From NCBI GenBank assembly GCA_965229705.1, contig OZ245922.1, positions 330,001-362,000 on the forward strand: DNA of 32,000 nucleotides, in the 5' to 3' direction. Made by a program: the position numbers and the translations under genes. The notes below the pieces were generated by a model that searched no databases, was not told where the DNA came from, and saw only the letters and a program-made list of their open reading frames with translations. Positions 1 to 31,797 of this stretch are shown one piece after another (position 1 is the stretch's first letter; every line of letters begins with the position of its first letter). The DNA is from Candidatus Saccharimonadota bacterium (GTDB lineage Bacteria; Patescibacteriota; Gracilibacteria; BD1-5; UBA6164).

Positions 1-738
1 TATATCACCATTCACTGCCAGTTGTCCAATCGCATGACCTGTGAGTTCAAGGTCATCTTTTAGGAATTTCCAAACAGGCTTTTCAGGGTTATCTTTGATC
101 TCATCTGTCTTTAGGAGGTAAGATACTTTCGTCTCTATATCACCAGTCAATGTGAGTTGCCCAATAGAAGAACCTGTGAGTTCAAGGTCATCTTTTAGGA
201 ATTTCCAAACAGGCTTTTCAGGGTTATCTTTGATCTCATCTGTCTTTAGGAGGTAGGATATTTTGGTCTCTATATCACCATTTACTGCCAGTTGCCCAAT
301 AGAAGAACCTGTGAGTTCAAGCTCATCTTTTAGGAATTTCCAAACAGGCTTTTCAGGGTTATCTTTGATCTCATCTGTCTTTAGGAGGTAGGATATTTTT
401 GTCTCTACATTACCAGTCAGTGCCAGTTTTCCAATCGCATAACCTGTGAGTTCAAGGTCATCTTTTAGGAATTTCCAAACAGGTTTTTCTGGACTATCCT
501 TCATCTCACCTGTCTTTAGGAGGTAGGATATTTTGGTCTCTATATCACCAGTCAATGTGAGTTGTCCAATCGCATGACCTGTGAGTTCAAGGTCATCTTT
601 TAGGAATTTCCAAACAGGCTTTTCAGGGTTATCTTTGATCTCATCTGTCTTTAGGAGGTAAGATACTTTCGTCTCTATATCACCAGTCAATGTGAGTTGC
701 CCAATAGAAGAACCTGTGAGTTCAAGGTCATCTTTTAA
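1..738. repeat. 120-bp tandem repeat, ~6 copies, coding (40 aa per unit), with a 540-bp higher-order duplication
   Basis: The unit ...ttcaaggtcatcttttaggaatttccaaacaggcttttcagggttatctttgatctcatctgtctttaggaggta... recurs every 120 bp. Positions 21-197 are identical to 561-737. Confidence 0.9.
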
Positions 739-1296
739 GAATGAAGCATAAGATAAAATAATACTTATCCTCTTCTCTCCGTCAGATTTAATAGCAATTT
801 TTAATAGATGATGCAATTTAGGAAATAGCTTCTGATATTCTCCTTCCTCATTAGCCCAAGCCAATATATGAAACCAACTTCCATAAAAAACTGCTTTAAT
901 AATATTTTTTTTAATTGTTTGATCTGTGTGTGTTGCAAGAAAGTCTTTCAAACTTGCTACATCAAATGACTCACATTTCTTTCTAATATCATTTATCAAG
1001 TCCAAGTTTTCAAACGCTGTTAATTCCCAAGCTGTTGTTGTGAGATGACCTGAAGATTGCAACACTTGGAGGAGCTCAACTTGCGTAAGTCTTTTAGCTC
1101 GCAAACAGCTCAAAGCTTGAACCAAAATAAGTTGAGGCAACTCTTCTAGGCTAGCTGACCGTACTCGTTTTTTTAGGCAATTTGCCAAATCTTTCCTCTG
1201 TCCAAGAATAATATGTAATAATTCCTTTACCTTATCTCACTGCTCAAATTTTTCAGTAGCTGAAGGACTTGCTCATTGTTGTGTAAGCTCATTCAT
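1..1296 (-). CDS. hypothetical tandem-repeat protein: unique ~185-aa N-terminal region followed by 40-aa repeats. The 3' end runs off the left edge of the window.
   Basis: The minus-strand frame is open from ATG 1296, with an in-frame TAA upstream at 1339-1341, down to position 1. There are two in-frame TGA (1273-1275, 1237-1239). It starts MNELTQQGASPSATEKFEQGDKVKELLHIILGQRKDL. From ~738 leftward it reads (ETKVSYLLKTDEIKDNPEKPVWKFLKDDLELTGxxIGQLxLTGDI)n. It is absent from the ORF track because it has no stop inside the window. Confidence 0.6.
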
Positions 1297-1389
1297 TGAA
1301 AGAAGTAAAATGTAATTGACACAAGTAATATAAATTTTTTAATGAATATTTCAAATTTTTATTGTTTTTCACTTTTTCTGGCTTTATTT

Positions 1390-5911: not shown

Positions 5912-6034
5912 TTTTTTTATAGATATCAATTTTTTATAACAAGTAAATAAAAAAAGTCTATAATAAATTTGATTTTAATAAAAATATACTCATAATATAT
6001 CTTATATAATTTATGTAAGATATATTTATTTTTT

Positions 6035-9000
6035 ATGAAAGGTATTCAAAGAGTATGACAGTGAGGAAGTGGTTCACTCGAAATATGACAATGAATTAAT
6101 AGTTCGACTACTCCTGTATATGAAAGTACTTTGGGAGAAGTTCATGATATCCTTAGTGGTCAATCACATATCAATATTGCCAGTGAAGAAGATGTTCAAA
6201 AATTATTCGATGAGTTTTGACTGTGATCTCATACTTCTTGAGCGTTGGTATTCAGAACAAGATGTTTAGGTATTATTCATGGTTCCTATGAACATAAAAA
6301 TAATGAAGACGAAGCTCTTTCTGATTATGTAATTGGAAAACAAACACTCAGTAAGCTGAGAACCTCATTTCCTTTTAAGGTTACAGTTACAAATACTTCT
6401 GTTGTTAAACACATCAGTTTAATGGAAGTTATACTTCATCCTGTGAAAATACTCCCAAGAGTATTAAAGAACGGAAAAGTAAATGATTTTTTAAATGATG
6501 GAGACACCTGAAAAGAATTTTTACTTTGAACCATACCTGCCCAACTCACCGGGTGACAAATTAATAAGTATGTAAATAAAAAAGATATTATACAAAATGC
6601 TCTTTTTGTTCTTATGGTCCCAAACTTTTTGATACAACAAGGAGAGAAATATCAGAATAATTTTTTTCAGATTCTATTCAAAGAGATAAAAAGTTCAGAA
6701 AAAAAGAGACTATTGTCAAAAGACTCATTTTTTTATTCGTATTTGCAAGAACATTTTTCGAGTATTTCGTACCTGAAAAAGCATTTTTTTATACACAGAG
6801 AAGAGAGTCAGAAAAATCTATGAAAAAATGTGAAACATAGTACTACTCAAGTAGATTATCCGCAGAGAAATCTTTCTGGAGAGAATACTTCTCAGGAGAA
6901 ACGGCAGATAGATCCAGGATTTCAAGAAGTAGTCGCAAGACAAGGAGAAGATTTTGAAAGGTTTATGTGACATATAACAGATATACTCAGAATTTTCAAG
7001 TGTAGTAAGAGACTAAGCTTTATATGTTTGAATATATACGATTTGCAAAACACAAAAAAACTAAATACTCCACTAGAAGAAATGAATATTTGAGAAATTG
7101 TTGATCTATATATTGCCTGACAGATTGATCTTGAAACGGCGCAAAGAGCAAAAGGTTTTGGTATGGATGAAGATCAATCAGAGAATCTCATACTTTATAC
7201 AGAAAAACTGAGTTTAGATCAAGAAACAATCGAGAAAATTAATCAAGATTATGGTGATGATGAAGACCCTTTTCGTCAGTGAGTTGTACTTTCACGAATA
7301 GATCTCTGAGTTTCTCTCTGAGAAGTGAAAGCAGAGAGGATGATATATTACCTTCTTCCACTGATACTCTATCCAACTTTTATTGTCAAACAACACCCAG
7401 AATACCAAAAAAGAGTGATAGAAATATTTCTCATAAATATCCAAAGATTGACAGAGTACTCTCTCAGTAGAGAAGATTTGCAGTCAGTTTTTATGTATTT
7501 AGAAAAGTATTTTCCCACATTCAGAGAACTTATGGATTATCAAGAAGAACTTTTGGATATAGCATGACTCCTTCAAGCCTTTGAATATCCAAGAGGACTA
7601 TGATACATTGCAGAGCTAAAGTTAGAGTTTCAAAGAGTATCATGAAAGCCAGTAACTAGTAAGGAAGATCTAGAGGCATATTGACTCGAAGATGCAAGTT
7701 TAATGCTCCTCTCATGAAAGTATGCTATAGATTCGATAAAAGAAGATATTTTTCCTAATTCTGAGAAAAAACACCAGCCATATGAGATTACTCATTTGTT
7801 AGGTCTTGCCAAAAATACAGAATTACAAAAACAATTTTTGAATATTTGTGATCAACAAACTAATAATATTTCTTCATTTGAAAACATCGATAGTATATGA
7901 ATACTTGAAAAAAGTATTCTTATGATGGCAATATTTCTCATAAGATCAAAAGAGAGTCTTATTTCTTCCGTAAAAGTGAGATATAAATATCATTTACTTT
8001 CATTACTCATTTATCCACAGTATATTCAAAAAACATCAGCAAAACAACAAAGAAGATTTTTCCAACTCCTGTTTCAACTCTTTAGTGAGAAGCAACTTCT
8101 TGGTGATGAGAGGATATATAACTACCTCCAAAAGTATTTTTGAAATATTGAGAGTCTCCAAACAAAAATAGCTTCTTATAATAAAAAGAAAGAATGAAAC
8201 GGCAAGGGAGTAAGACTGAGAAAAGCAGGAACGATGAAAAAAGGATCAAGAACAGACAGCCAAAAACTTACGGTTCCAATGTTTCCAATAGAAACATCAT
8301 CAATACCAGAAAAAGAGACTCCAAGAGAAAAGTCTCTTGAAGAGATACTTGAAGATGTACCGAAAGTTACGCGAGAGAATACTCGGGTAAGCAAGTTAGG
8401 GAAAAAGTATATTATTGATTCTGATATCGCCGTTCCAGAAGGATTTACGGTATTTATATGTTTGTGGGCAAAAAAGAAATGAACAACTTTGAAAGAACCT
8501 CAACAATTTCATACTTACACGCTGTGAAAAGCTATAGATATTCCTAGAGGATATCATCTTACAGTATGAGTTTTCCCTGAAAACACAGAGTTCAATCGTT
8601 CACTTTATGATCAACACAGTGAAAGTTTTCCTCATATTTACACTTCAACTGTACCAAAAAGTAGCAAAAAACAATATCATTGATGAGGCTTTTGAAGAAA
8701 GCAAGACTCATCAAAAAAACAAAGTGTAAAACCAGAAACACCTACAAACCATAGCACTACAAGCGAAGCAGAAAAAGATGTAGATCTCCTTCAATATGCA
8801 GTGACTGAGCATATCAATCGCGAAAATATGCGTATAAAGGGTGATGTGCTCAGCTTTGATATTCCTGAGTGAACAGGAGTTTTAGATACATCAGGTTATT
8901 CTGGGGAGGCAAAAACGAGAACTATCAAGATAGAGATGACGGGAGAAAGTAGTTATAAATTGCTATGTTTCTTATGAATTTCACAATTGCAAGTTACTGA

Positions 9001-10015
9001 TAATGACCTAGACACTGCTTTAAAACAAATAGTAACAGAAATCCAAAGAGAGAGACAAGAAGCAGAAAAAAAGAAGAAAATACAAGAAATGGCAAGGGAG
9101 AGAAAGAGGATACATGGACAACTCTCAGAACCCATAAAAAAGGCTACGGTATTTCTCTGACAGTGTCAGCCATCAGAAATAAAAAAGGTTACAGGAAACA
9201 GGACATTTTATGTATGGCAGATGCCGAGAAAGCAAGAGTTTTATGATAAAATCTCTGATATGTATAAAGGTATTTGATATGATATACGCTTTATACAGTG
9301 AGAAAAGCGGATATTAGACGCCGTGAGTATTAACGAGTATACTTTTGATATTCACTCGTCTGGGAAGGTAAAAAAAATTACTTGTGATAAAAAACTGGAT
9401 TTTTATCAAGACCAGATTTTGAGAATTATCTTAGAGTGAGTTTTGGCAGTGTTGGTAGTAAAATACTATCAGGATGATAATTTAGCCACAGAGAAGGCTG
9501 AGGTACTCTCACGAGTAAACGCATATATTGCTGATAGAGCTTCAAAAAGAGAAGAGTTAGTTACAAGACTCAAAGAAGGGAGAGCTTCTTTTGTTGATGG
9601 ATGGGAATACCATGAAAGTGAGAGTGTTGGCAGCAATCACCCCGAAATCACATATCGTGATTTACTCTGAACACGAGGACATATTAAGTTTTTTTGAAAT
9701 AAAATATTTAAAGAAGAGACTCTATTGCGCAACTATGAGGAACTTTTTGAAGAAATGGAAGAACATAAAGGAGCATTGACAGAGTATGTATTTATGAGGC
9801 TTACAAGTACCGAAAGAATACAGAATCAGAGTCAGAAAATACAGTATATATTATATTGATTTCAAGATGAGGGACTCTCTTTCGAAAGTGATGATATTAA
9901 GGGAAAACATGAGTTTTGTCTCAAAGTTCTCTCTGCGATGAGGAAAGCAAAAATAGGAGTCGAGCTTATTCGCCCTACATCATTTTTATATGAAGAGATT
10001 GAAGAGTTTTTATAA
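6035..10015 (+). CDS. large hypothetical protein (1326 aa) with no domain I can recognise and three related internal modules
   Basis: ATG 6035, TAA 10013-10015. I walked every codon and found 40 in-frame TGA and no TAA/TAG. Standard-code fragments 6245-6511, 6614-6823, 7325-7567, 7922-8143, 8234-8482 and 9443-9670 all lie in this frame. Confidence 0.7.
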
Positions 10016-14585: not shown

Positions 14586-14715
14586 ATAAACAAGGAACAT
14601 TATTTTCCTAAAATAAGAATATGTGTTTCTGTGTATTTTTTAACTCCATAGTTTTATGTTATGAACAGCAACTTTTACAAGAACAGACATAGAGATGTTA
14701 TGAACAGCAGAGTAT

Positions 14716-16338
14716 ATGCCTCTTAAAACAGCACTTGAAGAGTGGAAAAAGAGTAAATTTAGTAAGGGGCGTTTAATAATCAAACAAAAAGTAGAAGACT
14801 TTTTAGAATTTCTTGATGATGAGTCTCTCCCTGATATACAAATATCTTGTCGAGATGTTGAGTTTCTCAAGATGTTCGTAGAAAAAAGGGTTAAAAAAAT
14901 GATTATTTCTTATCAAAAGAAATATAATGGAGAAGTTTTTCAAGAATGAGAAAATAGAGCTGATCTTGAATGATATCCTATAATATGAGCGAGAGAGTTA
15001 TGAATATTTTTAGGAGAAGCCCTAAAAATAAATTTTACTTTTCATCATATACTTCCCTTTATGGAAAAAGCAGAGGTTATAGAGGCTAATCATCTCTGAC
15101 AGTCTCTCAAGATAGCTTATAGAGATAAGAGTTGTACTTTTCAAGATATAGTATTCATGCTTGAAAAAGCAGAGATTATAAATATCACTCATCTCTGACA
15201 GTCTCTCAAGATAGCTGTGAGAGATGAGAATTGTAATTTTCAAGATATAGTATTCATGCTCGAAAAAGCAGAGGTTATAGAGGCTCATCATCTTTGAGAA
15301 GCTCTCAGGATAGCTAATAGAGATAAGAGTTATACTTTTCAAGATATAGTATTCATGCTTGAAAAAGCAGAGGTTATAGACGCTAATCATCTTTGAGAAG
15401 CTCTCAGGATAGCTAATAGAGATAAGAGTTATACTTTTCAAGATATAGTATTCATGCTTGAAAAAGCAGAGATTATAAATAATGTTCATCTTTGGGGAGG
15501 TCTCCAGATAGCTGTGAGAGATGAGAATTGTACTTTTCAAGATATAGTATTCATGCTTGAAAAAGCAGAGGTTATAGACGCTAATCATCTTTGAGAAGCT
15601 CTCAGGATAGCTAATAGAGATAAGAGTTATACTTTTCAAGATATAGTATTCATGCTTGAAAAAGCAGAGATTATAAATAATGTTCATCTTTGGGGAGGTC
15701 TCCAGATAGCTGTGAGAGATGAGAATTGTACTTTTCAAGATATAGTATTCATGCTTAAAAAAGCAGAGGTTATAGAGGCTAATCATCTCTGACAGTCTCT
15801 CAAGATAGCTGTGAGAGATGAGAGTTATACTTTTCAAGATATAGTATTCATGCTTGAAAAAGCAGAGGTTATAGAGGCTAGTCATCTCTGACAGTCTCTC
15901 AAGATAGCTTATAGAGATGAGAGTTGTACTTTTCAAGATATAGTATTCATGCTTGAAAAAGCAGAGATTATAAATAATGTTCATCTTTGGGGAGGTCTCC
16001 AGATAGCTGTGAGAGATGAGAATTGTACTTTTCAAGATATAGTATTCATGCTTGAAAGAGCAGAGGTTATAGACGCTAATCATCTAAAACTTATACTCCT
16101 TATTGCAAGAAGAAAAAAAGGGCATTGGTTAGACTCTTTAATATGAATTTTAGAGAAAAATGTAGGTATGAGTGGTGAGTGTTTTATGCTATTACTCCAA
16201 ATTGCTCTTAATGATGATAGCTGTACCTATGAGAAGTTTTTATTCTTGCTAAAGATTGGAAGAGAAAAAGGAGTAAAATTTACTTCTAGGCATTTGCAGC
16301 TTATAAATAAAATACAAGAAAAGCTAGATAACAAGTAG
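14716..16338 (+). CDS. 33-residue tandem-repeat protein (ankyrin-like periodicity, alpha-helical repeat), 540 aa. Alternative in-frame starts at 14656 and 14695.
   Basis: The frame is open from ATG 14716 to TAG 16336-16338 when TGA is sense. A unique N-terminus (MPLKTALEEWKKSKF...) is followed by ~10 copies of MLEKAEVI(E/D)ANHL-G-(Q/E)(S/A)L(K/R)IAxRDxSxTFQDIVF and a degenerate last repeat plus a unique tail. Fragments 14716-14949 and 15949-16146 share the frame. Confidence 0.7.
15061..16083. repeat. 99-bp tandem repeat, ~10.3 copies, coding, in three sequence variants
   Basis: Repeat units start at 15157 and every 99 nt after that, preceded by a first 96-bp unit at 15061. The block 15355-15552 is identical to 15553-15750, a perfect 198-bp tandem duplication. 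Confidence 0.95.
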
Positions 16339-16399
16339 TGAAAAATCGCAGAAAAGATGAAAAAACCCACAGAGAAGACGAAATAAAAAAAAGTAAACT

Positions 16400-18877
16400 A
16401 TGAAACTACAAGGAATAAGAATAGAACAGAGATTTATCAGTAAAGAAGAACTATGAGATCCAAAAATATTGGATATTTTTTGAAGTGTGTGAGATCAACA
16501 TATCACAGGAATACAAAAAGAGATTTTTAACGCGTGACTTGACTGTCTGAGACAAACTCACTCATGACAAGAGCTTGGTATACTCCAGCAAGTAAAACTT
16601 GCTGCTTTTGAGATTATTACTTGAGCACAGATGGTTTTAGAGTGAGAAAGAACTGCTCCAGATAGAGAAACACTCTCATTTTTTGATCCTCAAGATGTTT
16701 TACGTATCATCAACTCTACAAATGAAGATAATGCAAGAAAAGAGATAGAGCAGGCAAAGTGAAAAATGGAGAAAAAACCCTTTTTCCTAGAAGCAGATGA
16801 AGATGGATACTGATATCTCTGTGATAACTCTGGAGAATATATGTGAGAGATATATACCCGTTCAGGAGGTTTTACTCATATAGAGAGTATGGAGAGAGAA
16901 GAATATGTGTATCTGCTCGTTCAAAAAAATAGAAATATAGAAGTGTATAAAGCGTCATCATCAAATCTTTATGAATATGAAGAAATTTTTGTTATCTTTG
17001 GTGGAAACCTGCAAAATATTATAAGTGCCCCTGCGTGAGCAAATGACATATTGATATATCAGAAAGATAAAAATATCATTGTATATGATCTTTTAGATGA
17101 TGGTGATATATGTTTTTCTGAGTCAGAAAATACTTGTCTTGAAGTAACAGATGTTGTGAGGTATGGGCAAAAAATATATGTTCATTATGTATCAGAGTTT
17201 GAACAACAAGAATTCTATATCATACAAGACTGTGATGAACAAGAAGAAGTTATCAGAATCTCCTATGAGTATAGATTTATTCCTCATGACAAGGGATATG
17301 TAGTGATATTTTACGACGATGAGGAAGAATGCTATACACTTTTTGATCAAGAGGAAACTACTATTACCAACATTGTTGCTCTTATCTCTCAAAAAACATG
17401 AAATCCAGTTTCTCAGTGAGACTTCCTAGAAATATCAGAGTATTATCTTGAGTCATGAAAACTTTGTATTCCTTTTGTATATAAAAATCAAGCTGGAGAA
17501 CTTTATGAGGGAAGCTATGTTTATCAAGTAGATGATGTATCCCGACTCCATGGTCAGGTATATACTGAGCAAAAAAAGTTTCTTTGATGAAATACATGAG
17601 AAGAACTATGAATACCACCAGAAGATGATTATGAAGCCATAGAAGACGCTCTAGATCTTGTATGAGATATCTTCGAACGCTCCTCATATTTTGATCAGCA
17701 ATTCACGGCAGTGTTTTGAACAACATTAAGGAGTGTGATTTTAGAGGGGGTGGTTTTTTCAAAATCAAGCTTGAATCATTTTCAGGAACTACAAAGACTT
17801 GATATTCAAAAATTTGAAAAGTTTATGAGAGACCTCGACTACGATATTATAGAAGAAAAGTTATCTCTAAATATAGAGACAGGCTTTATTACTTGTTTTA
17901 TCAGTCAATTGAAAACAATAATACAGGAAGCAGAAACAACATTGAGAGTATTTACAGAACTTGGGAATGAGAAAAATCATCAAAATTTTATAAAAATAGA
18001 TACCTCCGAGTGATATACTCTTTTTCAAGAAAAAGAAACGCAGGAAATATTTCTTTGTATCAATGGAGAGTTCATACCTGGTATTAGATATCCTGATAGT
18101 CAAAACTTTGTTCACTTTCAGACAAATACGCATTGCTATATTTATGAATTTGATACTGAAAAAATGCAAAAATTTGAGTGAGAGTTTGAAGAGGCTTATA
18201 TTTTTTGAGGCAAATATTACCTACAAATAGCATACCCATGTTCTGAAAATATCTCATCATCAAAGATTTACTGCTGAGAAGATCACTGCGTATATGAGAA
18301 AAAAGTTCTATGAAGTATCTGACGTATCATATGACTAGTGGAAATTTGAAATGATATATACGCCTTAGAGGTAAAGCAATCTTTTGAAGAATCAAGAACC
18401 TATAAAAAAGGAAAACTTTACTATACTTGAGAGTGTAGTGATCAGGAAATAGTGTGTGTGAAAAGTATATATAGCTGAGCAATTCTCTGAGAGTGAAAAG
18501 GAGTGTATGTGAGGCATTATACCTTTTGAGAAGAACTAGTGCTAGAAACGATTTTCTGAGACACAATATATATTCAAGTAATGAATGAATATAACGGTGA
18601 TGTATCATCCCTAGAGTTGTATTCCCGTGATATTTACACACGAATACGCACAAAAAACTCTTTAACCTATGTTGTTCAGTGAGAAGATGGATTATTTTCT
18701 CTCATAACTCTTCCATATCTTGTACAATATTGAACAGAAAATCCAAAAGTCACTCATATAGGAAATGTTCAGTACATGTGAGAGAACCTCACAGAACCCT
18801 ATGTAGTACTCCATTTTCAAGATGGAGGAAAGTGAAAGTTTCTTCTTGAAAGAAGCTATGAAGAAACTCTGCATTAA
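16400..18877 (+). CDS. large hypothetical protein (825 aa), acidic and Tyr-rich, with no recognisable domain
   Basis: ATG 16400, TAA 18875-18877. I walked every codon and found 38 in-frame TGA and no TAA/TAG. Standard-code fragments 17051-17401 and 17735-18013 are in this frame. Confidence 0.7.
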
Positions 18878-24098: not shown

Positions 24099-24226
24099 AC
24101 TTTCTCAGAACTTCCTTACAAAGATACCCTTGAAAAAATTACTTCATCACTATAATACGGCTACTTCATTTTTCCTACACCGAAAAATACCAGTAACCCT
24201 GCAAGTTATTCTCTTACATATTTCTC

Positions 24227-25315
24227 ATGCGATACACACAAAAATATCGTCTTTTAACCTTTTACAAGTTTGTAGATGTGGCAGACCCTGAGGCAGAATG
24301 CCTAGAACACCTTACATTTACCAAAGACATTTGAATGAAAGGTAGAGTCTACATATGAAAAGAAGGCATTTCAAGTACTGTTACCGGAAACCAGTGACAA
24401 ATACAGGCCTATAAACTCTACCTTGATAATCATCCCCTTTGGAAAAATATCCAAGATATAGATATCAAATCCAGTCCCACAAACACCCATCAGTTTTCTC
24501 GAATGCAAGTAAAAGTTCGTGATGAAATCGTTGTTTTATGAAAAAAATATTCACAAAAAGAAATACAGCAGGCAGGTAATAGAATGAGTATAGAAGAATT
24601 TAAAAAGATACTTGATAGCGAAAATAGGCAGGACTATGTGATCTTAGATATGAGAAACAATCATGAGTATCAACTCTGACATTTCAAAAACGCTATCAGA
24701 GCAAACACTCTGAACTTTCGTCAACTCGAGAAAGAAATAGAAACTTATAAAAAAACCTTTGGTAATAAAAAAATTATTTCTTACTGCACCGGAGGTATTC
24801 GATGTGAAAAATCTACTGTTATGCTCCAGAAAGCTGGACTCAAAAACACCTACCAACTTGACGGAGGAGTCGTAAAATATATCAACACTTACAATGACGG
24901 CAATTGGCTTGGAAATCTCTATGTATTTGATGACAGAGTCAGTCAGCAGGTCTGAGATGAACAGACCCATACCACAATAGGAGAGTGCCTATACTCACAG
25001 AAAAAAACAGACAATTGTGAAAATTGCCGACTTTCTCGCTGCAATGCCCGTATTATTGCCCAGAGAAAAGAGTATAAAAAACACGCATGATTTTGTAGTG
25101 AAGAGTGCGCTCAAGAAGCGCTTTCAACCTTACTGGTAAAAACAGATTTTTCTCTTGATCCTGTCGACTATAAAAAGAAAAGATGAGTGATAAAGCAGCA
25201 TCCAGAACTCCGAGAACGTATCGAAAATGAGCTTCGTACACACCTCAAAAAACAACTAGATGGAGTCGTGTTTCCTCATAAAGTATCACAAAAAGAGGAT
25301 TATATATTGGACTAA
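24227..25315 (+). CDS. trhO: rhodanese-domain tRNA uridine(34) hydroxylase TrhO (YceA/UPF0176 family)
   Basis: ATG 24227, TAA 25313-25315, every codon walked (8 in-frame TGA). Motifs: LTFYKFVDV...; MRNNHEYQL-G-HFKNAI; active-site loop YCTGGIRCEKST; C-terminal Cys cluster CLYSQKKTDNCENCRLSRCN...FCSEEC. Confidence 0.85.
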
Positions 25316-25380
25316 AATCCCTTGCAAATATGTATTTATCGCTATAATTCCAGCGTTTTATTATTTTACATATATATATT

Positions 25381-25824
25381 ATGGAAACGAGTTTGATTCT
25401 CCTAAAACCAGATTGTGTAGAGAGAGGTCTTATAGGTCAGGTTATTAGCCGACTAGAGCAAAAATGACTCAAGATATCATGACTCAAGATGATGCAGTTA
25501 GACGATGCACTTATCAGCGAACACTATGATTTTCTTGCGGATAAACCTTTTTTTCCAAAGATACGAGAATACATGTCTCGAACACCTATTGTAGCTCTTG
25601 CCGTGAGTGGAACAAGTGCTATTGCAACTGTGAGAAACCTTACAGGCGCAACAAATCCCCAAGAAGCACTTCCAGGATCTATTAGGGGAGATTTTGGCCT
25701 GACGATTGATGGAAATATTATTCACGCAAGTGATAGTGAAGAAACAGCTCAAAAAGAGCTTGAAAGATTTTTTGCAGGAAAAGATATTTTTGACTACCCA
25801 CGAGGAGTAGACAAGATACTCTAA
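25381..25824 (+). CDS. ndk: nucleoside diphosphate kinase
   Basis: ATG 25381, TAA 25822-25824. Sequence: [40 protein letters not shown]...EHY...GATNP..A.PGSIRGDFG...NIIHASDS. Confidence 0.9.
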
Positions 25825-25847
25825 ATACTTCTCTTCAATACAAAAAT

Positions 25848-27341
25848 ATGTCTCCACTCTATGATACCATGCTTGCTGAGTATCTCAAAAACCCTTGAGG
25901 ACACTGACTGAGTCTAGACACTCTTGCAGAGAAAAAGTACGACTATGAGATGATATCTTATAGCGATATCACTGAGAAAAAAAATCTTACTTTCCACGAA
26001 GTCTCACTCGAAAAAGCAGCCGCTTATTCATGAGAAGATGTATACATCACATACAAGCTCTACAAAGATCAGCAAGATGAGACCTATAGAGCAAAGGCAA
26101 TATCTCAGCAAGAAAATACGAATCATAAAAGAGATATTCTCATAGATATAGAATTGCCACTTATGCAGGTACTCTCTGACATGGAGATGACGGGTATAAA
26201 AATAGATAAAAAGATACTAGAGTGAATCGGAGAAAGGCTCTCATGAGCGATAGAAGAACTCCAAGAAGAGATATATACTCTTGCGGGAGAAGTATTTAAC
26301 ATACACTCTCCAAAACAGGTATGAGAAATACTCTTTGAGAAACTTGCTCTTCCAAGTTCTAAAAAAACAAAAACTGGTTATAGTGTGAATGCTGAAGTTC
26401 TCGAAGGGCTCAAGAAAGAGTATCCTATTGCTGAGAAAATAGTAACATATCGTCACTACTGCAAGCTTCGTTCTACCTATATAGAAGGTCTTTTGAAACT
26501 TGCAACAGATACAGACAGGATTCACACTAGTTACAATCAAACTGTTACTTCTACCGGAAGACTCTCAAGTAATAAACCAAATCTCCAAAATATACCTATT
26601 GGAAATGATATTGCTGGAGAGATTCGTTCCGGCTTTATTCCAGACGAAGACAGTATTCTTGCAGCGCTTGATTATTCTCAAGTAGAAGTGAGACTCTTAG
26701 CTATTATGAGCCGAGATGATAATCTCCTGAAAGCTTTTCAAGAAGAGAGAGATATACATCAGGTAACGGCTGAATATATTTTTTGAAGTAGTCATATAAG
26801 CCCAAAGCAGAGACAGTTTGCCAAGGCAGTAAACTTTTGAGTGATATACGGTATAAGTCCTTTTGGGCTCTCAAATATGATAGATATTAGCCAAAAAGAG
26901 GCAAAGACTTATATCGAGAGTTTTTATGAAAATTACCCAAAGGTACGGAGCTTTTATGACGATATTATACTTAACTGTAAGAGGCAGGGATATGTTGAGA
27001 CTCTTTTTTGAAGAAGGAGGTATATCAAGTCTATCAATGACCAAAACAAGATGATGCAAAAGTGAGCAGAGAGAGAGGCTATCAATATGCCGATTCAGGG
27101 AAGCAGTGCAGATATCATTAAACTAGCAATGATACAAATATCCAAAATGCTTCGTGAGGAGAGTTTTGAGAGTAAGATGCTTTTGCAGGTACACGATGAG
27201 TTAGTGTTTAATATTAAAAAGTCAGAGCAACATAGCATTCTCCCAAAGATACAACATATCATGGAACATGTTCTTCCCAGCTCTCCTATACCACTCAAAG
27301 TTGATATTGCTATAGGAAATAATTGGAAAGAGTGTAAATAA
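25848..27341 (+). CDS. polA: DNA polymerase I, polymerase (family A) domain only (497 aa)
   Basis: ATG 25848, only 23 nt after the ndk stop. Stop TAA 27339-27341. It begins at the Exo III region (YDTMLAEYLKNP...AAAYSGEDVYITYKLY). Motif A: LAALDYSQVEVRLLA. Motif B: RQFAKAVNF-G-VIYG. Motif C: LLQVHDELVF. No 5'-nuclease or Exo I/II sequence precedes it. Confidence 0.9.
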
Positions 27342-27358
27342 TCATAACTTTTATATAT

Positions 27359-27586
27359 ATGGAATTTATCGTTGATATATTTTATGCTTTTTTGTTTATC
27401 CTCTGAGGGATGGCAATCATAAAATATCGAAGAAATCTCAAATGATGGACAGGGAATTGGTTCTGGGCAGAAAGATATCTCTGAAGTGGGGGCACATATC
27501 TGGTGATGATCATTATAGGATTAGCAATGATATTTTTTGGAGTGTTATACCCATTTTGAGCAGGGGATTTCTTGGGAGGAGTTTAG
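27359..27586 (+). CDS. small membrane protein (75 aa)
   Basis: ATG 27359 to TAG 27584-27586 with 4 in-frame TGA. It has two hydrophobic helices: MEFIVDIFYAFLFILGGMAII...GTYLVMIIIGLAMIFFGVLYPF. Confidence 0.45.
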
Positions 27587-27620
27587 AGAGCTTGTATATG
27601 CTCCATAAGTAAATCCTTGA

Positions 27621-27866
27621 GTGTTTTTGCTAGGTTTTCAGGACGCTTGCATACCTTTCAAAGAGTCTATACTCTGAATTAATTTCAATGATTATACTCA
27701 CAGAACATTAGTGACTCGTGATTATGGAGTATACAAAAATGCAGGTGGACACATTTATAGCTTTATTCGTGGCGGCAATGCTAATAATGGTGCTATCGGC
27801 GCGCCAGTTTCGTTGAACTTGGACTTTAACTATTATATTGATGTCTCGTTTCGTCCTTCTGTGTAA
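27621..27866 (+). CDS. short ORF, possibly a gene remnant (81 aa from GTG 27621)
   Basis: The frame is open from 27609 to TAA 27864-27866 with one TGA (27675), and the region looks locally richer in G+C. It ends ...YGVYKNAGGHIYSFIRGGNANNGAIGAPVSLNLDFNYYIDVSFRPSV. There is no ATG start and no clear family. Confidence 0.2.
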
Positions 27867-27867
27867 T

Positions 27868-27974
27868 GCTTGAGCAGGTTTTGAGAAAGTCTTTTTTTTC
27901 TCATTTTGAAAGGAGGGATTTCTCACTAAAGCTAGAGTGGATAAGAGAATTTTTGTTTTTCAGAGCTTGCTCAA
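27868..27974 (+). repeat. dispersed intergenic repeat, long copy (more diverged)
   Basis: ttgagaaagtcttttttttctcattttgaaaggagggatttctcactaaagctagagtggataagagaatttttgtttttcagagcttgc aligns with the copies at 10791 and 21177 (rc). Short inverted ends: gcttgagca (27868) and tgctcaa (27968-27974). Confidence 0.7.
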
Positions 27975-28042
27975 AAATCTTTCGTGTTTTTCAGCTTTCT
28001 TTATACAATAAGTTTCGCGCTTATTTGTATTACATACCTACT

Positions 28043-29470
28043 ATGAAAAAACAGATTTTTATCACTGTCTTGTGTCTGACAGTATTATTGTTTCCATATA
28101 TAACAGAGGCATGAACCTGGAAAGACTCTCTCATAGATATCTCTGAAACAATAGAGAGAGAAACGCCCAAGAGCTATGAGTACATTAGTCTCAACTTTCA
28201 GCGTGTACCAACAAACTCTCAAATAGAACTCGCTCTCAAAAAACTCGTATATCATGATGTGATAGAAAACGCGAGTGTTGCCCTCCCATTTTCTCAGGAA
28301 ATTTCTAAAGAGTTTGAAAACGCGATAAAACGCAAGATAACAACTCTCAATCAAGAAAATAAAACGCTTCATATAGAGCTGTGAAATACTCAATCTCAAA
28401 CACAACTCTCAGAAAAAGAAAGGGTCTTTTATGATGTGCTTAACACGCTCCAGGACTCACATGTATATAAAGATGAGTTTAGCCAAGATGATCTTCTCGA
28501 CGCCGCAATAACTGGTCTCACTGAGTGAACAGATGACAGCTATACAACTTATTTTCCTCCCGCAAGAAGTACCACTCTCTACCAATCACTTGATGGGGAG
28601 TATGAGTGAGTCTGAGCCTATGTAGAAATGCCCGAGCCTGGAGTCATCATCGTTGTGTCTCCGATAGTATGATGACCTGCAGAAGAAGTATGAATAAAAG
28701 GTGGGGATAGAGTCACTCATGTAGATGGGCAAGAAATCACAGAAGATATTTCATTGCAGGAGGCCGTCAGCTGGATCAAGTGACCGAGTGGAACACGCGT
28801 TGAACTGACCGTACTGAGAGGCGAGGAAGAACTGGTATTTTCTGTAGTCAGGCAAAAAATAGTCCTCAAAGATGTAGAGCATGAGAAACTCTCGTCAGAT
28901 ACATACTATATTCAGATCAAAAACTTTGGAGATAGTGTTGATACCGAGTTTCAAGAAGCTCTTTCTGTTATCTCTGACGATAGATCAGTAGATAGAATTA
29001 TTTTTGACCTCAGAAATAACCCAGGAGGATATCTACACAAGGCTTCCTCTGTACTGAGTTACTTTTTGGACGAATGATCTCCTGCTGCCGTGATACGAGC
29101 AGGAGATGAAGAAACTCGCTATATATCCGCCTGATATGATCTTATTGATTTTGAGGACTATGAGCTCATATTTCTGCAAAATAGCTGAAGTGCCTCTGCC
29201 TCTGAGATCATGATAGGAACAGTAAAAGACTATTTTCCAGATGCAATAGTGATAGGGGAACAAAGTTTTTGAAAATGATCAGTACAAACTCTCAGACCAT
29301 ACAGAGATGGATCAACACTCAAATATACCAGTGCAAAATGGTATACAGGAAAAAGTAATACAGGAATAGACGGTGTGTGAATCATTCCGGATATTGAGCT
29401 CCTTTTTGATAGAGAAAGATGGGAAACATACAAAAAAGATAATCAACTCGAAAGAGCGCTCGAATACTAG
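28043..29470 (+). CDS. ctpA: carboxy-terminal processing (tail-specific) peptidase, S41 family, with a PDZ domain
   Basis: ATG 28043 (MKKQIFITVLCLTVLLFPYITEA, signal-like), TAG 29468-29470, every codon walked. PDZ region: VSPIV-G-G-PAEEV-G-IKGGDRVTHVDGQ...IK-G-PSGTRVELTVLR. Also DLRNNPGGY, NS-G-SASASEI and EQSF-G(29270)-K-G(29276)-SVQT. The standard-code ORF 27866-28114 is only an upstream read-through of the same frame across the repeat. Confidence 0.85.
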
Positions 29471-29475
29471 TCACT

Positions 29476-31491
29476 ATGAGAACCTATTTCATCCAAACAT
29501 TTTGATGCCAAATGAATCAGGCTGACAGTGAGAAAATACATATGGTATTTTTGCAGTCGGGATTTTGTCGAGCTTGAAATATTCAGAGTGCGGATATCGT
29601 TATTTTTAATACTTGCAGTGTCCGTCAAAAATGAGAAGATAGGGTATTTGGTATGATGAGAGATCTCGCTCGCAGTTCTCACAAACCTCTTTTTGCTATC
29701 ACTGGTTGTATGGTACGCAAAACAGGTCTCGCAAAAAGATATCTTCCTACAGCTCAAACAAAGACAAAGAAGAAAAATACTACAAAACACATACAACTCC
29801 TAGACCATGAACAATGAATATATAACAGTGAAGATACACTCTTTGTGCGTAGCGAGTATATTGATTGCGTTTTTCGTATAGAAGAAACACGCTACATACC
29901 CCATATACTTTCACATATTTACGGTGAAAAAATCGGGCAAGAAGATAAATATGATGACTACCTCAAACAAGTCCAACAACGAGAAAACCCCTTTTCTGCA
30001 TCAGTGATTATCCAAACAGGTTGCGATAACTACTGTACATTTTGTATTGTTCCATACACGCGGTGAGGGGAAATATCTCGTCCAGAAGATGATATAATAA
30101 ATGAGTGTCAAGATGCCGTCTCCAATGGAGCAAAAGAGATCACGCTTCTCGGGCAAAATGTCAATTCCTATGGGAAACAAAAAAATAGCAAACTTTGGAA
30201 TAGTGAAAAATCGAGATGGAATACTGCTCAAAAAACTCTTAAAATAGGAGTCGATCTTGATGATACTCTCTTTGTTGTACTCAGTGAAGAAGTCATACAA
30301 AGCTATAATGCCAAGTATCATAAGATTCTCGAGCTCGATGATGTGCGAACATTTAACTGCAATGGTATACCAGAGCTTATGCAGGAATATCACAACTATG
30401 AACAGAGACACCGATGAGATATGTCTCTCCATGAGAATGGAAAAAAGGTATTGCAAAAATTATACGCTGCAGGACACAAAATATATGTGATCACCTCAAG
30501 ACCAGCAAAAGAGAGAAAGACTACAGAAGCACTTTTGGAAAAATATTTTTGAAAATGATTTTTTTCTCAGATATGTTTTGTCAGTGAGCTTGGGCATGAT
30601 AACAAGTATGAGATTGCCAATACTCTCCAGCTCGATGTGGTTATCGATGATGGACCACATCATATCCGTGCCTATCAAAAAAACTTTTCAGGAAAAATAT
30701 GTATATTTACTCAACCATGGAACAAGACTATCTCAGAAGATGGGCAAAAAACCTATAGAGTCAACTGCTGGAATGAGTTTGCTGAAAGGATAGAGAGTTT
30801 TCAGTTTTATTCGCCTTTTCGATCTCTCTTAGAAAAAATAGATACTCTACAAGGTCTTGATCGTATACGATTTACTTCCAGCAATCCACATGACATGACG
30901 AGAGATATTTTGGATGCTCATAGTGAGCTCTCAAAAACCTGCAATTATCTCCACTTTGCTCTCCAGTCATGAAACAATAAAATGCTCAAAAAAATGAATA
31001 GGCGTCATAGTTATGAAGATTTTCGTGATATGGTAACGTATCTGCGAAAAAAAGATCCTCTCTTTTCTATTTCTACAGATATTATTGTATGATTTAGTGG
31101 AGAAACTGATGAAATGTTTGAGGATACTGTTCGCGCGTTTCGAGAGTGCATGTTTGACTTCTGTTATACAGCGAGGTACTCTGTGAGACCCAATACCCTT
31201 GCAGCAAAAGTTATGCCAGATAATGTTCCTGAGAGTGTCAAAGCTGAGAGGTGGCATATACTCAATGATCTTTTGTTAGAAAATATTTCTCAGAGAAACG
31301 AGCTCATGCTTGGAAGAGTAGAGAAAGTACTGATATCATGAAAAAAAGATGCCGTATTTTTTGGGAGAACACGTAACTTTAAAGAAGTTTTTTTCGAAGC
31401 TCCAGAGAGCTGTAATATCTGAGATTTGGTAGACATAAAAATAACCGATCGTGATAGATATGTACTCAAGGGAAAGTATACAAATACATAA
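29476..31491 (+). CDS. miaB: tRNA methylthiotransferase MiaB with a nested HAD-superfamily (NT5C-like) domain (671 aa)
   Basis: ATG 29476, TAA 31489-31491, every codon walked. Motifs: [37 protein letters not shown]; radical-SAM [16 protein letters not shown](30064)-GE; [10 protein letters not shown]; [insert 30238-30804]; [14 protein letters not shown]; LHFALQS-G-NN; IV-G(31090)-FSGET; TRAM-like C-terminus. Fragments 29845-30066, 30637-30972 and 31114-31341 share the frame. Confidence 0.9.
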
Positions 31492-31497
31492 AATGCT

Positions 31498-31797
31498 ATG
31501 CAAATACCAAAGGAAAAATTTCAAGATCTTCTCCGTTCATGAGAATATATACTCCTGGATGTTCGTACGTTTCATGAGCAGGAAACCCATGGAGTGATAT
31601 CACAAGAACAAATACATATAGATATTATGGAAACTGATGCTTCGGAAAAAATCAAAAATCTTGACCATCAAAAAAAATACCTCATCTATTGCTGGCATGG
31701 CAGGAGAAGTGCGACAACAAGAGAATATATGCAGGCTCATGGTTTTAAGAATGTGTATGATCTCCAGTGAGGAATAGATGCTTGGAAAGAGCTTTAA
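31498..31797 (+). CDS. single-domain rhodanese-like sulfurtransferase (99 aa)
   Basis: ATG 31498 (6 nt after the miaB stop), TAA 31795-31797. Motifs: YILLDVRTFHEQETHG...; active-site loop YCWHGRRS; AHGFKNVYDLQ-G-GIDAW. Confidence 0.75.

What the first reader, a model, noticed from the sequence alone, without database searches (positions are those of the whole stretch)
30238..30804. Complete HAD-superfamily (NT5C-like 5'(3')-deoxyribonucleotidase-type) domain nested in frame inside the radical-SAM core of MiaB
Seen: between the conserved MiaB blocks [10 protein letters not shown] (30148-30174) and [14 protein letters not shown] lies a ~190-aa segment. It shares the miaB frame, has no TAA/TAG, and contains 3 TGA-Gly codons (30415, 30550, 30556), so it uses the host code. 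It carries all HAD catalytic motifs in order: motif [10 protein letters not shown] (DxDxT), motif II YVITSR, and motif IV VVIDDGP. Its tail, FTQPWN...YRVNCWNEF, is like NT5C/YorS-type nucleotidases. Standard-code fragment 30637-30972 already spans the distal junction (…[39 protein letters not shown]…). Typical MiaB proteins are roughly 440-480 aa and this one is 671 aa. I do not know of a radical-SAM methylthiotransferase carrying a phosphatase inserted in a barrel loop. Inference: either a functional fusion (for example acting on nucleotide by-products or substrates of tRNA modification) or a domain-insertion event tolerated in a surface loop.
Basis: partly seen in the sequence, partly recalled or inferred. 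Interest (0 to 1): 0.8.

Follow-up and report, generated by a model that had tools for sequence, protein, structure and literature searches.

The report
Nucleotidase domain nested inside MiaB
In a group of tiny TGA-recoded bacteria (Gracilibacteria), the tRNA-modifying enzyme MiaB carries a complete, apparently active small phosphatase (a 5'(3')-nucleotidase-type HAD domain) spliced into a loop of its catalytic barrel; this domain architecture is real, old and conserved, was not found in the searchable literature, and its purpose is unknown.

Summary
Read with TGA=Gly, window 29476-31491 (+) is one 671-aa MiaB-type methylthiotransferase. Residues 255-443 (30238-30804) form a complete NT5C-type HAD phosphatase domain (Pfam PF06941, 41.6 bits against a cutoff of 24.8). 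The closest fold is 3BWV (TM 0.83), then the human 5'(3')-deoxyribonucleotidases. The domain sits in the loop between strand beta2 (LLGQNV) and helix alpha2 (SPFRxLL) of the radical-SAM barrel.

It is not an assembly artefact. At least 63 database protein clusters and 15 species-representative Gracilibacteria genomes share the architecture. All HAD catalytic residues are invariant in 64/64 sequences, although module identity falls to 28%. Module and MiaB core co-diverge (Spearman 0.80), and composition is native.

The distribution is patchy. Close sister MiaBs lack the module through a clean in-frame indel of about 594 nt, and rare free-standing copies branch inside the nested clade. This points to one old insertion with repeated losses.

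The best reading is a bifunctional protein: an intact MiaB plus an independently acting nucleotide phosphatase. Related NT5C domains fuse to NUDIX, HD and kinase domains. Coupling to the MiaB pathway is hinted at by single cases only and is unproven. I rate it a new variant of a known kind, of moderate interest.

The parts
29476..31491 (+). miaB-type methylthiotransferase ORF with nested NT5C module: 671 codons plus a TAA stop, with 12 in-frame TGA(Gly) codons
   Evidence: Table-25 translation. NCBIfam TIGR00089 (MiaB/RimO) scores 383 bits against a cutoff of 251. The AF2 model of homolog P0007 superposes on B. uniformis MiaB 7MJZ with TM 0.78.
29485..29724 (+). N-terminal MTTase (UPF0004) domain, aa 4-83. 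The auxiliary-cluster cysteines are C11, C47 and C78 (C78 lies within this domain span).
   Evidence: Pfam PF00919 scores 74.8 bits. The cysteine columns are invariant or conserved in the 83-sequence alignment.
29986..30174 (+). First part of the radical-SAM domain, aa 171-233. It contains CxxxCxxC (C183, C187, C190; 30022-30045) and strand beta2 'ITLLGQNV'.
   Evidence: Pfam/NCBIfam split match. Model secondary structure has a strand at 220-224. Alignment to 7MJZ.
30175..30237 (+). Gracilibacteria-specific loop and N-side linker, aa 234-254 ([21 protein letters not shown]). It is also present in insert-free relatives as KQxxxKLWNxEKSKWN.
   Evidence: Junction comparison. It is absent from B. 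uniformis MiaB.
30238..30804 (+). Nested NT5C-type HAD phosphatase module, aa 255-443. Motif I is D260/D262/T264 (30253-30267), motif II is T340-S-R (30493-30501), motif III is K377 (30604-30606) and motif IV is D391-D392-x-P-H-H (30646-30663). A helical cap lies between motifs I and II.
   Evidence: Pfam NT5C above cutoff. Catalytic residues are invariant in 64/64 sequences. The module-only AF2 model has pLDDT 95.3. Its best fold hit is 3BWV at TM 0.83, then mdN/cdN. It aligns end to end with free-standing 185-195-aa proteins.
30805..31134 (+). C-side junction (F444-Y445) and second part of the radical-SAM domain, aa 446-553. It begins with helix alpha2 '[10 protein letters not shown]' and strand beta3 '[11 protein letters not shown]'.
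   Evidence: Pfam Radical_SAM best stretch is 452-553. The model has a helix at 446-455 and a strand at 462-466.
31306..31476 (+). C-terminal TRAM (RNA-binding) domain, aa 611-667
   Evidence: Pfam PF01938 scores 28.4 bits against a cutoff of 21.
31498..31797 (+). Single-domain rhodanese gene starting 6 nt after the miaB stop (active-site loop CWHGRRS). It is a possible sulfur-relay partner and is not part of the insertion.
   Evidence: Pfam Rhodanese scores 60.7 bits. It is conserved immediately downstream of, or overlapping, miaB in L004, L006 and L008, and lies nearby in L011.

Best explanation
The gene encodes a bifunctional, four-module polypeptide. An otherwise ordinary MiaB-type tRNA methylthiotransferase has a whole free-standing-type NT5C/HAD phosphatase of about 190 aa inserted in the solvent-exposed beta2-alpha2 loop of its radical-SAM barrel. 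The MiaB part comprises the UPF0004 auxiliary-cluster domain, the radical-SAM domain and the TRAM domain.

Shown:
- The insertion is real, in frame, compositionally native and uses TGA=Gly.
- It is old and vertically inherited within Gracilibacteria.
- Every HAD catalytic residue (Asp nucleophile, Asp+2 acid/base, Thr/Ser, Lys, acidic pair) is invariant.
- The module folds confidently like capped 5'(3')-deoxyribonucleotidases.
- The MiaB cluster cysteines and fold are intact.
- The module has been lost cleanly several times and occasionally exists as a separate gene.

Inferred:
- The module is an active Mg2+-dependent phosphomonoesterase acting on a small, cap-enclosed substrate, most probably a nucleoside 5'- or 3'-monophosphate.
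- It works independently of MiaB's methylthiolation chemistry.
- The fusion mainly provides co-expression or stabilisation in a streamlined genome that depends on nucleotide salvage. It is not an obligatory catalytic partnership.
For: Architecture and reality; 63 database clusters at 46-98% identity; 15 species-representative genome loci, all nested and all with in-frame TGA.

Catalytic competence: D260, D262, T/S340, K377, D/E391 and D392 are invariant in 64/64 sequences, while module identity drops to 28%.

Fold: the module model has pLDDT 95.3 and matches 3BWV at TM 0.83 and mdN/cdN at about 0.74. The profile against PDB sequences gives 3BWV at E 6e-7.

MiaB intact: the full model has pLDDT 87.5 and pTM 0.74 and superposes on 7MJZ/7MJV at TM 0.78 across both flanks. 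Cluster cysteines are conserved.

Native and old: GC is 36.8 vs 37.1%, codon usage lies within the random-chunk distribution, and TGA density is equal. The Mantel test of core against module distances gives r=0.80 with 0/999 permutations reaching it.

Independence from MiaB:
- P0046 (insert) and P0097 (no insert) are sisters in 100/100 bootstraps at 85% core identity.
- A single in-frame indel of about 594 nt separates L035 from L034.
- No core column tracks insert state across sister pairs.

Nucleotide substrate: related NT5C domains are fused to NUDIX, HD and guanylate-kinase-like domains.
Against: - No activity or substrate is demonstrated.
- The subgroup has its own invariant residues that differ from characterised mdN/cdN (TSR after motif II, DDxPHH, PWN, a C-terminal Trp), so the substrate may not be a canonical dNMP.
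- Gene fusions often signal a functional link. A nested insertion retained across more than 50% sequence divergence is hard to explain by co-expression alone.
- I could not read model coordinates or PAE, so the geometry between the HAD site and the MiaB site is unknown.
- Insert-free genomes were not shown to lack or to possess a compensating free copy.
Confidence: 0.55

Rival explanations
1. Functional coupling to the MiaB pathway. Under this reading the module processes a phosphorylated molecule tied to i6A/ms2i6A-tRNA metabolism or to radical-SAM turnover, so the fusion is a Rosetta-stone signal. Candidate roles are dephosphorylating i6AMP or ms2i6AMP released by tRNA decay so that they are not re-used, acting on a by-product-derived sugar phosphate, or supporting Fe-S/sulfur supply.
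For: - The closest well-sampled free-standing copy (P0125, code-25 genome) is the third gene of a tight sufS-like / NifU-SufU / NT5C-like operon.
- A more distant free copy (P0132) sits in an overlapping ThrRS-NT5C-MGMT-MiaA string.
- P0156 joins ELP3_N plus a radical-SAM start to an NT5C-like domain.
- A rhodanese gene abuts miaB.
- The module is retained in different genomic contexts.
Against: - Each association is a single case. Other close free copies lie next to thioredoxin/RecA or PNPase, and more distant ones next to ParB or YhbY.
- None of 31 Elp3-homolog loci carries the module.
- The module is lost cleanly in many lineages, and the free subgroup is rare at about 8 clusters.
- No core positions co-vary with module presence.
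- None of MiaB's known substrates or products (SAM, SAH, 5'-deoxyadenosine, methionine) is a phosphomonoester (established biochemistry).
Confidence: 0.25
2. A non-catalytic passenger or structural element. Under this reading the HAD fold is merely tolerated in a permissive loop, or serves as a scaffold or tRNA-binding surface, without phosphatase activity.
For: - The loop is a hotspot of length variation, with other expansions of 28-51 aa.
- The module evolves faster than the core (48 vs 68% mean pairwise identity).
- It is dispensable in many lineages.
Against: All six catalytic positions, plus about 15 further positions, are invariant across 64 sequences down to 28% identity. The free-standing relatives show the same conservation. 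A decaying passenger would lose these residues first.
Confidence: 0.08
3. An RNA-end phosphatase. Under this reading the module removes a 3'- or 5'-phosphate from (damaged) tRNA held by MiaB, in the manner of the HAD-type phosphatase domain of polynucleotide kinase-phosphatases.
For: The module belongs to the same superfamily and has the DxDxT chemistry. Pnkp1 (4XRP) appears as a weak profile hit at E 0.011. The host protein binds the anticodon stem-loop.
Against: The module has an NT5C-type helical cap between motifs I and II (model helices 20-30 and 48-60). Its best matches are mononucleotidases, not cap-less Pnkp. Capped HADs enclose small substrates (established HAD structural classification).
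Confidence: 0.05
4. An artefact or selfish element, meaning a chimeric assembly, a frameshifted gene pair, an intein or a mobile insertion.
For: The distribution is patchy among close relatives.
Against: - The same junctions occur in 15 independent species-level assemblies and 63 protein clusters.
- The segment shares a single frame with the host and uses its TGA=Gly codons.
- Codon usage is native.
- Module and core co-diverge.
- No intein termini are present. The module starts with LKIGVDLDD and ends with ...ESFQFY|SPFR, with no C-terminal His-Asn and no nucleophile at +1 (read directly from the sequence).
Confidence: 0.01

Closest known systems
MiaB, tRNA (i6A37-C2)-methylthiotransferase (e.g. 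Bacteroides uniformis MiaB, PDB 7MJV/7MJZ)
   Same: It has the three-module layout of UPF0004 domain, radical-SAM domain and TRAM domain. It has the three N-terminal cysteines and the CxxxCxxC motif. The fold match has TM 0.78. The best NCBIfam equivalog is MiaB, well above MtaB and RimO.
   Different: A 190-aa NT5C/HAD domain lies in the beta2-alpha2 loop, together with a lineage-specific extension of that loop of about 14 aa. It scores just under the MiaB equivalog cutoff even with the module removed (351.4 vs 355.3). NCBI therefore names these proteins only 'radical SAM protein'.
NT5C family 5'(3')-deoxyribonucleotidases: human mitochondrial dNT-2/mdN (1MH9, 1Z4I), cytosolic cdN (2I7D, 2JAO) and the uncharacterised S. 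epidermidis homolog 3BWV
   Same: It has the HAD Rossmannoid core with a small helical cap, all four catalytic motifs and the same length (about 180-195 aa). It passes the Pfam PF06941 cutoff. TM is 0.83 to 3BWV and about 0.74 to mdN.
   Different: Identity to solved members is only about 20%. Subgroup-specific invariant residues (T-S-R, DDxPHH, PWN) replace mdN's T-S-P, DDRPD and HN. It is embedded in another enzyme instead of free-standing. No substrate is known.
End-to-end bifunctional HAD fusions, e.g. Acinetobacter MtlD mannitol-1-phosphate dehydrogenase/phosphatase (7OCN), and NUDIX-NT5C, NT5C-HD and NT5C-kinase fusions seen here
   Same: In each case a HAD phosphatase is joined to a second enzyme in one polypeptide.
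   Different: Those are terminal fusions of consecutive pathway steps. Here the HAD is nested inside the partner's catalytic domain, and no shared pathway step is evident.
HAD-type phosphatase domain of polynucleotide kinase-phosphatase (T4 Pnkp, Pnkp1 4XRP)
   Same: It uses DxDxT chemistry and is associated with tRNA or RNA.
   Different: Pnkp phosphatases lack the cap and act on polynucleotide ends. The module here is capped and resembles mononucleotidases.

Membership tests
HAD superfamily phosphatases | Motif I, DxDx[T/V], after a hydrophobic strand (nucleophile Asp and Asp+2) | tested here: met
   The query has KIGV-D260-L-D262-D-T264. Both Asp residues are invariant in 64/64 sequences and in all 15 genome loci.
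HAD superfamily phosphatases | Motif II Ser/Thr, motif III Lys and motif IV acidic pair (DD/ED) | tested here: met
   T/S340 is present in 64/64, K377 in 64/64, D/E391 in 64/64 and D392 in 64/64.
HAD superfamily phosphatases | Rossmannoid alpha/beta core fold | tested here: met
   The module-only AF2 model has pLDDT 95.3 and pTM 0.91. 282 PDB matches at E<=1e-3 are dominated by HAD hydrolases.
HAD superfamily phosphatases | Mg2+-dependent phosphoryl-transfer activity | not testable with these tools
   This requires an enzyme assay.
NT5C (Pfam PF06941) 5'(3')-deoxyribonucleotidase family | Score above Pfam's gathering threshold over most of the model | tested here: met
   The score is 41.6 bits in the full protein and 43.7 bits for the segment alone, against a cutoff of 24.8, covering profile positions 4-172 of 180.
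NT5C (Pfam PF06941) 5'(3')-deoxyribonucleotidase family | Closest solved relatives are NT5C members, with a small helical cap inserted after motif I | tested here: met
   The profile search gives 3BWV at E 6e-7 and 1MH9 at 8e-4. The fold search gives 3BWV at TM 0.83 and rmsd 2.9 A, and mdN/cdN at TM 0.64-0.75. Cap helices at 20-30 and 48-60 lie between motifs I and II.
NT5C (Pfam PF06941) 5'(3')-deoxyribonucleotidase family | Nucleoside-monophosphate substrate, and the base/sugar-binding residues of mdN/cdN | tested here: inconclusive
   The flanking signature residues differ (TSR, DDxPHH and PWN against mdN's TSP, DDRPD and HN). Fusion partners of related domains are nucleotide enzymes.
MiaB/RimO radical-SAM methylthiotransferases (TIGR00089) | Score above the curated subfamily cutoff | tested here: met
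   The score is 383.4 bits with the module and 396.8 bits with the module deleted in silico, against a cutoff of 251.
MiaB/RimO radical-SAM methylthiotransferases (TIGR00089) | Three conserved Cys in the UPF0004 domain (auxiliary cluster), CxxxCxxC (radical-SAM cluster) and a C-terminal TRAM domain | tested here: met
   The query has C11, C47 and C78, and C183, C187 and C190 (sequence). These columns are invariant in the family alignment. UPF0004 scores 74.8 bits and TRAM 28.4 bits.
MiaB proper (equivalog TIGR01574; acts on i6A37) | Score above the equivalog cutoff, and clearly better than MtaB and RimO | tested here: inconclusive
   The score is 342.8 bits, or 351.4 bits with the module removed, against a cutoff of 355.3, so it falls just short. 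MtaB scores 278.7 and RimO 217.7. The fold is closest to B. uniformis MiaB.
MiaB proper (equivalog TIGR01574; acts on i6A37) | Presence of MiaA (the i6A37 synthase) in the same genome | not tested
   No IPPT gene lies within the 32-kb window.
Inteins / mobile in-frame elements | N-terminal Cys/Ser, C-terminal His-Asn followed by Cys/Ser/Thr, Hint fold and foreign composition | tested here: not met
   The module begins with LKIGVDLDD and ends with ESFQFY|SPFR. Pfam finds only NT5C/HAD. Composition and codon usage are native. The module co-diverges with the host.

The most novel reading that the evidence does not exclude
The NT5C-like module, nested in MiaB here, occasionally free next to sufS-sufU or miaA, and once seen joined to an Elp3-type radical-SAM enzyme, could be a dedicated partner of radical-SAM tRNA-modification enzymes. 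For example, it could be a nucleotidase specific for hypermodified adenylates (i6AMP/ms2i6AMP) released from tRNA, or for a phosphorylated by-product. The fusion would then mark an unrecognised step of ms2i6A metabolism or quality control in minimal-genome bacteria.
Probability: 0.12. Interest if true: 0.8.

Novelty: new variant of a known kind. Interest (0 to 1): 0.5.

Why it matters
Domain insertions inside the catalytic barrel of a radical-SAM enzyme are unusual. This one is a natural, repeatedly 'knocked-out' experiment, because closely related MiaBs exist with and without a fully conserved phosphatase in the same loop.

- It identifies a permissive site in MiaB that could be used for engineering.
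- It explains why NCBI's pipeline demotes these proteins to a generic 'radical SAM protein', which is an annotation fix.
- It defines a distinct NT5C subgroup (TSR / DDxPHH / PWN) whose substrate is unknown.
- If the module turns out to be linked to tRNA-modification metabolism or nucleotide sanitation, it would reveal how ultra-small episymbiotic bacteria handle modified nucleotides.

Tried and rejected
- **Insert-only word-indexed protein search.** It returned nothing, not even the window's own protein, which is a tool limitation. The exhaustive HMMER search replaced it.
- **Single-sequence phmmer against PDB.** It gave no real hit. An alignment profile was needed.
- **Chimeric assembly, intein or mobile element.** Rejected and on the junction sequences.
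- **Fe-S/sulfur-operon linkage of the free-standing copy.** It did not recur in other close free copies.
- **MiaA adjacency.** It was seen once only, and in a distant homolog. Other contexts were ParB and YhbY.
- **Elp3-NT5C protein P0156.** Its DNA could not be fetched because the look-ups were exhausted. None of 31 Elp3-homolog metagenome loci has the module, so it stays an unverified singleton.
- **MiaB-core positions co-varying with module presence.** None was found apart from the junction column.
- **Intermediate-length loops (28-51 aa) as decayed modules.** They show no detectable homology. Only the xF[KT]-SPFR junction motif is shared.
- **The MiaB structure paper (Esakova et al. 2021, PMC9107155).** It is not held, so tRNA contacts of the beta2-alpha2 loop could not be looked up.
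- **Model coordinates and PAE.** They are not exposed, so inter-domain geometry could not be measured.
- **L018's apparent 837-aa ORF.** It is just upstream read-through. The real start gives about 679 aa.
Full report
**1. What is in the sequence**

The window is about 36% G+C, and its genes are shattered under the standard bacterial code. Read with table 25 (TGA=Gly), long ORFs appear throughout. Positions 29476-31491 (+) form one 671-codon ORF with 12 in-frame TGA codons, including 30415, 30550 and 30556 inside the segment of interest.

Pfam finds four things in this ORF:
- UPF0004 at aa 4-83
- a Radical_SAM domain split into two stretches
- NT5C (PF06941) at aa 257-437, at 41.6 bits against a gathering cutoff of 24.8, covering profile positions 4-172 of 180
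- TRAM at aa 611-667

NCBIfam matches the MiaB/RimO subfamily model in three collinear pieces (383 bits against a cutoff of 251). The only correction is one codon: [10 protein letters not shown] spans 30145-30174.

**2. The module is a whole enzyme of NT5C type**

An exhaustive HMMER search of 1.84 billion representative proteins with the segment found 868 relatives. The nearest non-MiaB hits are free-standing proteins of 185-195 aa that align end to end with the segment. For example, query residues 7-184 align to residues 4-181 of the 185-aa P0123 at 36% identity (alignment).

A profile of nested and free sequences finds the S. epidermidis 'putative 5'(3')-deoxyribonucleotidase' 3BWV at E 6e-7 over its full length, followed by human mitochondrial deoxyribonucleotidase.

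An AF2 model of the module alone is very confident (pLDDT 95.3, pTM 0.91). It has a helical cap between motifs I and II. Its best structural matches are 3BWV (TM 0.83, rmsd 2.9 A) and then mdN and cdN (TM about 0.64-0.75).

The subgroup also has its own invariant residues, shared by nested and free copies: T-S-R, DDxPHH, PWN and a C-terminal Trp. These differ from mdN/cdN, so the exact substrate cannot be transferred from those enzymes.

**3. Where it sits in MiaB**

Alignment of an insert-free relative to B. uniformis MiaB (7MJZ) places the site in the loop '...[25 protein letters not shown]...'.

In the AF2 model of homolog P0007 (pLDDT 87.5, pTM 0.74), the order is strand 220-224 (beta2), the loop, the module at pLDDT 87-97, helix 446-455 (alpha2) and strand 462-466 (beta3). 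The only low-confidence stretch is the cofactor-less cluster loop. The whole model superposes on MiaB 7MJZ/7MJV at TM 0.78 across both flanks.

So the barrel is predicted to stay intact, with the module as an excursion from the beta2-alpha2 loop. From general knowledge of radical-SAM folds (not tested here), loops that follow the beta strands lie on the cluster/SAM face of the barrel. I could not obtain coordinates, so the distance between the two active sites is unknown.

**4. It is real, lineage-specific and under selection**

Of the 120 best database hits to the full protein, 63 clusters share the architecture. They are 589-697 aa long including fragments and 46-98% identical to the query. 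The rest are 463-532-aa MiaBs, also from Gracilibacteria, without the module.

A scan of one genome per species found 15 bacterial loci, all nested in a MiaB ORF with 2-28 in-frame TGA codons. They come from independent MAGs, including oral GN02-873. All keep motifs I, II and IV. This excludes misassembly.

In 64/64 sequences D260, D262, T/S340, K377, D/E391 and D392 are invariant. Meanwhile module identity drops to 28% and mean pairwise identity is 48%, against 68% for the core.

GC content, codon usage and TGA-Gly density of the module match the rest of the gene. Module and core distances correlate strongly (Spearman 0.80; 0 of 999 Mantel permutations reach it).

**5. Patchy distribution: one old gain, repeated clean losses, occasional free copies**

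On a tree of the MiaB core alone, insert-bearing proteins are not monophyletic (0/100 bootstraps). P0046 (with the module) and P0097 (without) are sisters in 100/100 replicates at 85% core identity. P0054 and P0070 are sisters in 88/100.

At the DNA level, the P0046/P0097 genes (loci L035 and L034) are 79-81% identical on both sides of a single in-frame indel of about 594 nt.

The junctions are sharp:
- Insert-free loops are uniform: 48 of 55 are 22-23 aa long and end in [ED]G[ILV]GK-SPFR.
- Insert-bearing proteins read ...WN-linker-K[IL]G-xDxDD ... xF[TKV]-SPFR.
- A few insert-free proteins have 28-51-aa loops that keep the xF[KT]-SPFR junction motif, which is consistent with partial deletions.

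The free-standing proteins P0123, P0125 and P0127 branch inside the nested-module clade, but this free subgroup is rare, at about 8 clusters. Because the module tree mirrors the core tree, one ancient insertion followed by several losses (and perhaps fissions) is more parsimonious than many insertions at the identical site. A rooted maximum-likelihood analysis is still needed.

No MiaB-core position tracks module presence across independent sister pairs, so I see no sign of a co-adapted interface.

**6. Clues to function**

(a) *Fusion partners.* Related NT5C-like domains are fused to nucleotide-metabolism domains: NUDIX (P0182), HD (P0247) and a guanylate-kinase-like P-loop (P0218). This supports a nucleotide substrate.

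(b) *Gene contexts.* The contexts of free copies are mixed.
- One close copy in another code-25 genome ends a tight sufS-like / NifU-SufU / NT5C operon.
- One distant copy lies in a ThrRS-NT5C-MGMT-MiaA string.
- Other copies lie next to thioredoxin/RecA, PNPase, ParB or YhbY.

(c) *P0156.* This protein combines ELP3_N and the start of a radical-SAM domain with an NT5C-like domain. It is a singleton that I could not verify, and none of 31 Elp3-homolog loci has the module.

(d) *Rhodanese.* In the window and its nearer relatives, a single-domain rhodanese gene abuts or overlaps the 3' end of miaB. This is plausible as a sulfur relay for MiaB but is unrelated to the insertion.

The known small-molecule substrates and products of MiaB are not phosphomonoesters (established biochemistry). 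A direct role in the methylthiolation cycle is therefore not obvious.

**7. Conclusion and comparison with what is known**

The host is a member of the MiaB/RimO methylthiotransferase family and is MiaB-like. With the module deleted in silico it scores 351.4 on the MiaB equivalog model, just under the 355.3 cutoff, against 278.7 for MtaB and 217.7 for RimO. The guest is a member of Pfam NT5C and forms a distinct subgroup of it.

The most likely mechanism is a bifunctional protein. An unaltered MiaB is combined with an independently acting, capped, Mg2+-dependent nucleotide phosphatase. The combination is retained for co-expression or stability in streamlined genomes that depend on nucleotide salvage.

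Functional coupling to ms2i6A metabolism remains possible at roughly one chance in four.

Public records carry these proteins only as 'radical SAM protein' (NCBI). One JGI record has the automatic name 'MiaB/5'(3')-deoxyribonucleotidase'. Eight full-text literature searches found no description of the architecture.

I therefore rate it a new variant of a known kind. It is moderately interesting, and the experiments that would settle it are clear.

Noticed in passing
window 31498-31797 (+): A single-domain rhodanese gene (active-site loop CWHGRRS) starts 6 nt after the miaB stop. In close relatives it overlaps the miaB 3' end (L004, L006, L008). It could be the persulfide or sulfur donor for MiaB in these organisms.
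   Followed up: partly
whole window, e.g. 29476-31491: The genome uses TGA as a sense codon (Gly, table 25), and nearly every long gene has several in-frame TGA codons. Public gene calls for relatives are variously truncated at TGA or translate it as Trp (W), which creates spurious fragments such as P0121-P0131.
   Followed up: yes
window 30175-30237, and aa ~84-130 (29725-29865): All Gracilibacteria MiaBs, with or without the module, have a lineage-specific extension of the beta2-alpha2 loop (KQxxxKLWNxEKSKWN, about 14 aa longer than B. uniformis MiaB). They also have an extra basic segment between the UPF0004 domain and the radical-SAM domain.
   Followed up: partly
L001 4386-6576 (code-25 metagenome contig, ENA ERZ25038117): The closest well-sampled free-standing homolog of the module is the last gene of a tight operon: sufS-like cysteine desulfurase, then NifU/SufU scaffold, then NT5C-like gene, with gaps of 9 nt and 1 nt.
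   Followed up: partly
L023 141-3727: A more distant free NT5C-like gene lies in an overlapping gene string of ThrRS, NT5C-like, MGMT-like DNA_binding_1 and IPPT (MiaA). MiaA is the enzyme that makes MiaB's substrate.
   Followed up: no
protein P0156 (ENA, 16-kb contig; DNA not retrieved): This 440-aa protein has an ELP3 N-terminal domain, a radical-SAM cluster motif (CPHGKCIYCPGG) and the IFMGGTF strand, followed by an NT5C-like domain. It then ends. It may be a second nesting of this module in a radical-SAM tRNA-modification enzyme, or a truncated gene call.
   Followed up: partly
public records for P0007, P0025, P0047 and P0059 (NCBI MCH8518218.1, NDK09685.1, NUJ97583.1, NRH20518.1): NCBI names the insert-bearing proteins only 'radical SAM protein', while insert-free relatives are named 'MiaB/RimO family radical SAM methylthiotransferase'. 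The insertion, together with lineage divergence, pushes them under the naming cutoffs.
   Followed up: yes
window 1-1338 (-) and 14644-16338 (+): Two ORFs consist largely of long tandem protein repeats. One has units of about 45 aa (...KFLKDDLELTGxxIGQLxLTGDIETKxSYLLKTDEIKDNPEKPVW...). The other has units of about 36 aa (...FQDIVFMLEKAEVIxANHLGxxLxIAxRDxSxT...). Their function is unknown.
   Followed up: no
window 5996-10015 (+) and 16397-18877 (+): Two very large ORFs (1339 aa and 826 aa under table 25) have no obvious family from reading the sequence. They were not searched.
   Followed up: no
window 24197-29470: The gene order TrhO-like (UPF0176/rhodanese), Ndk, PolA fragment, S41 protease (PDZ), MiaB, rhodanese is conserved in the nearer species (L004-L010). 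It is not conserved in more distant insert-bearing species (L013-L018).
   Followed up: yes
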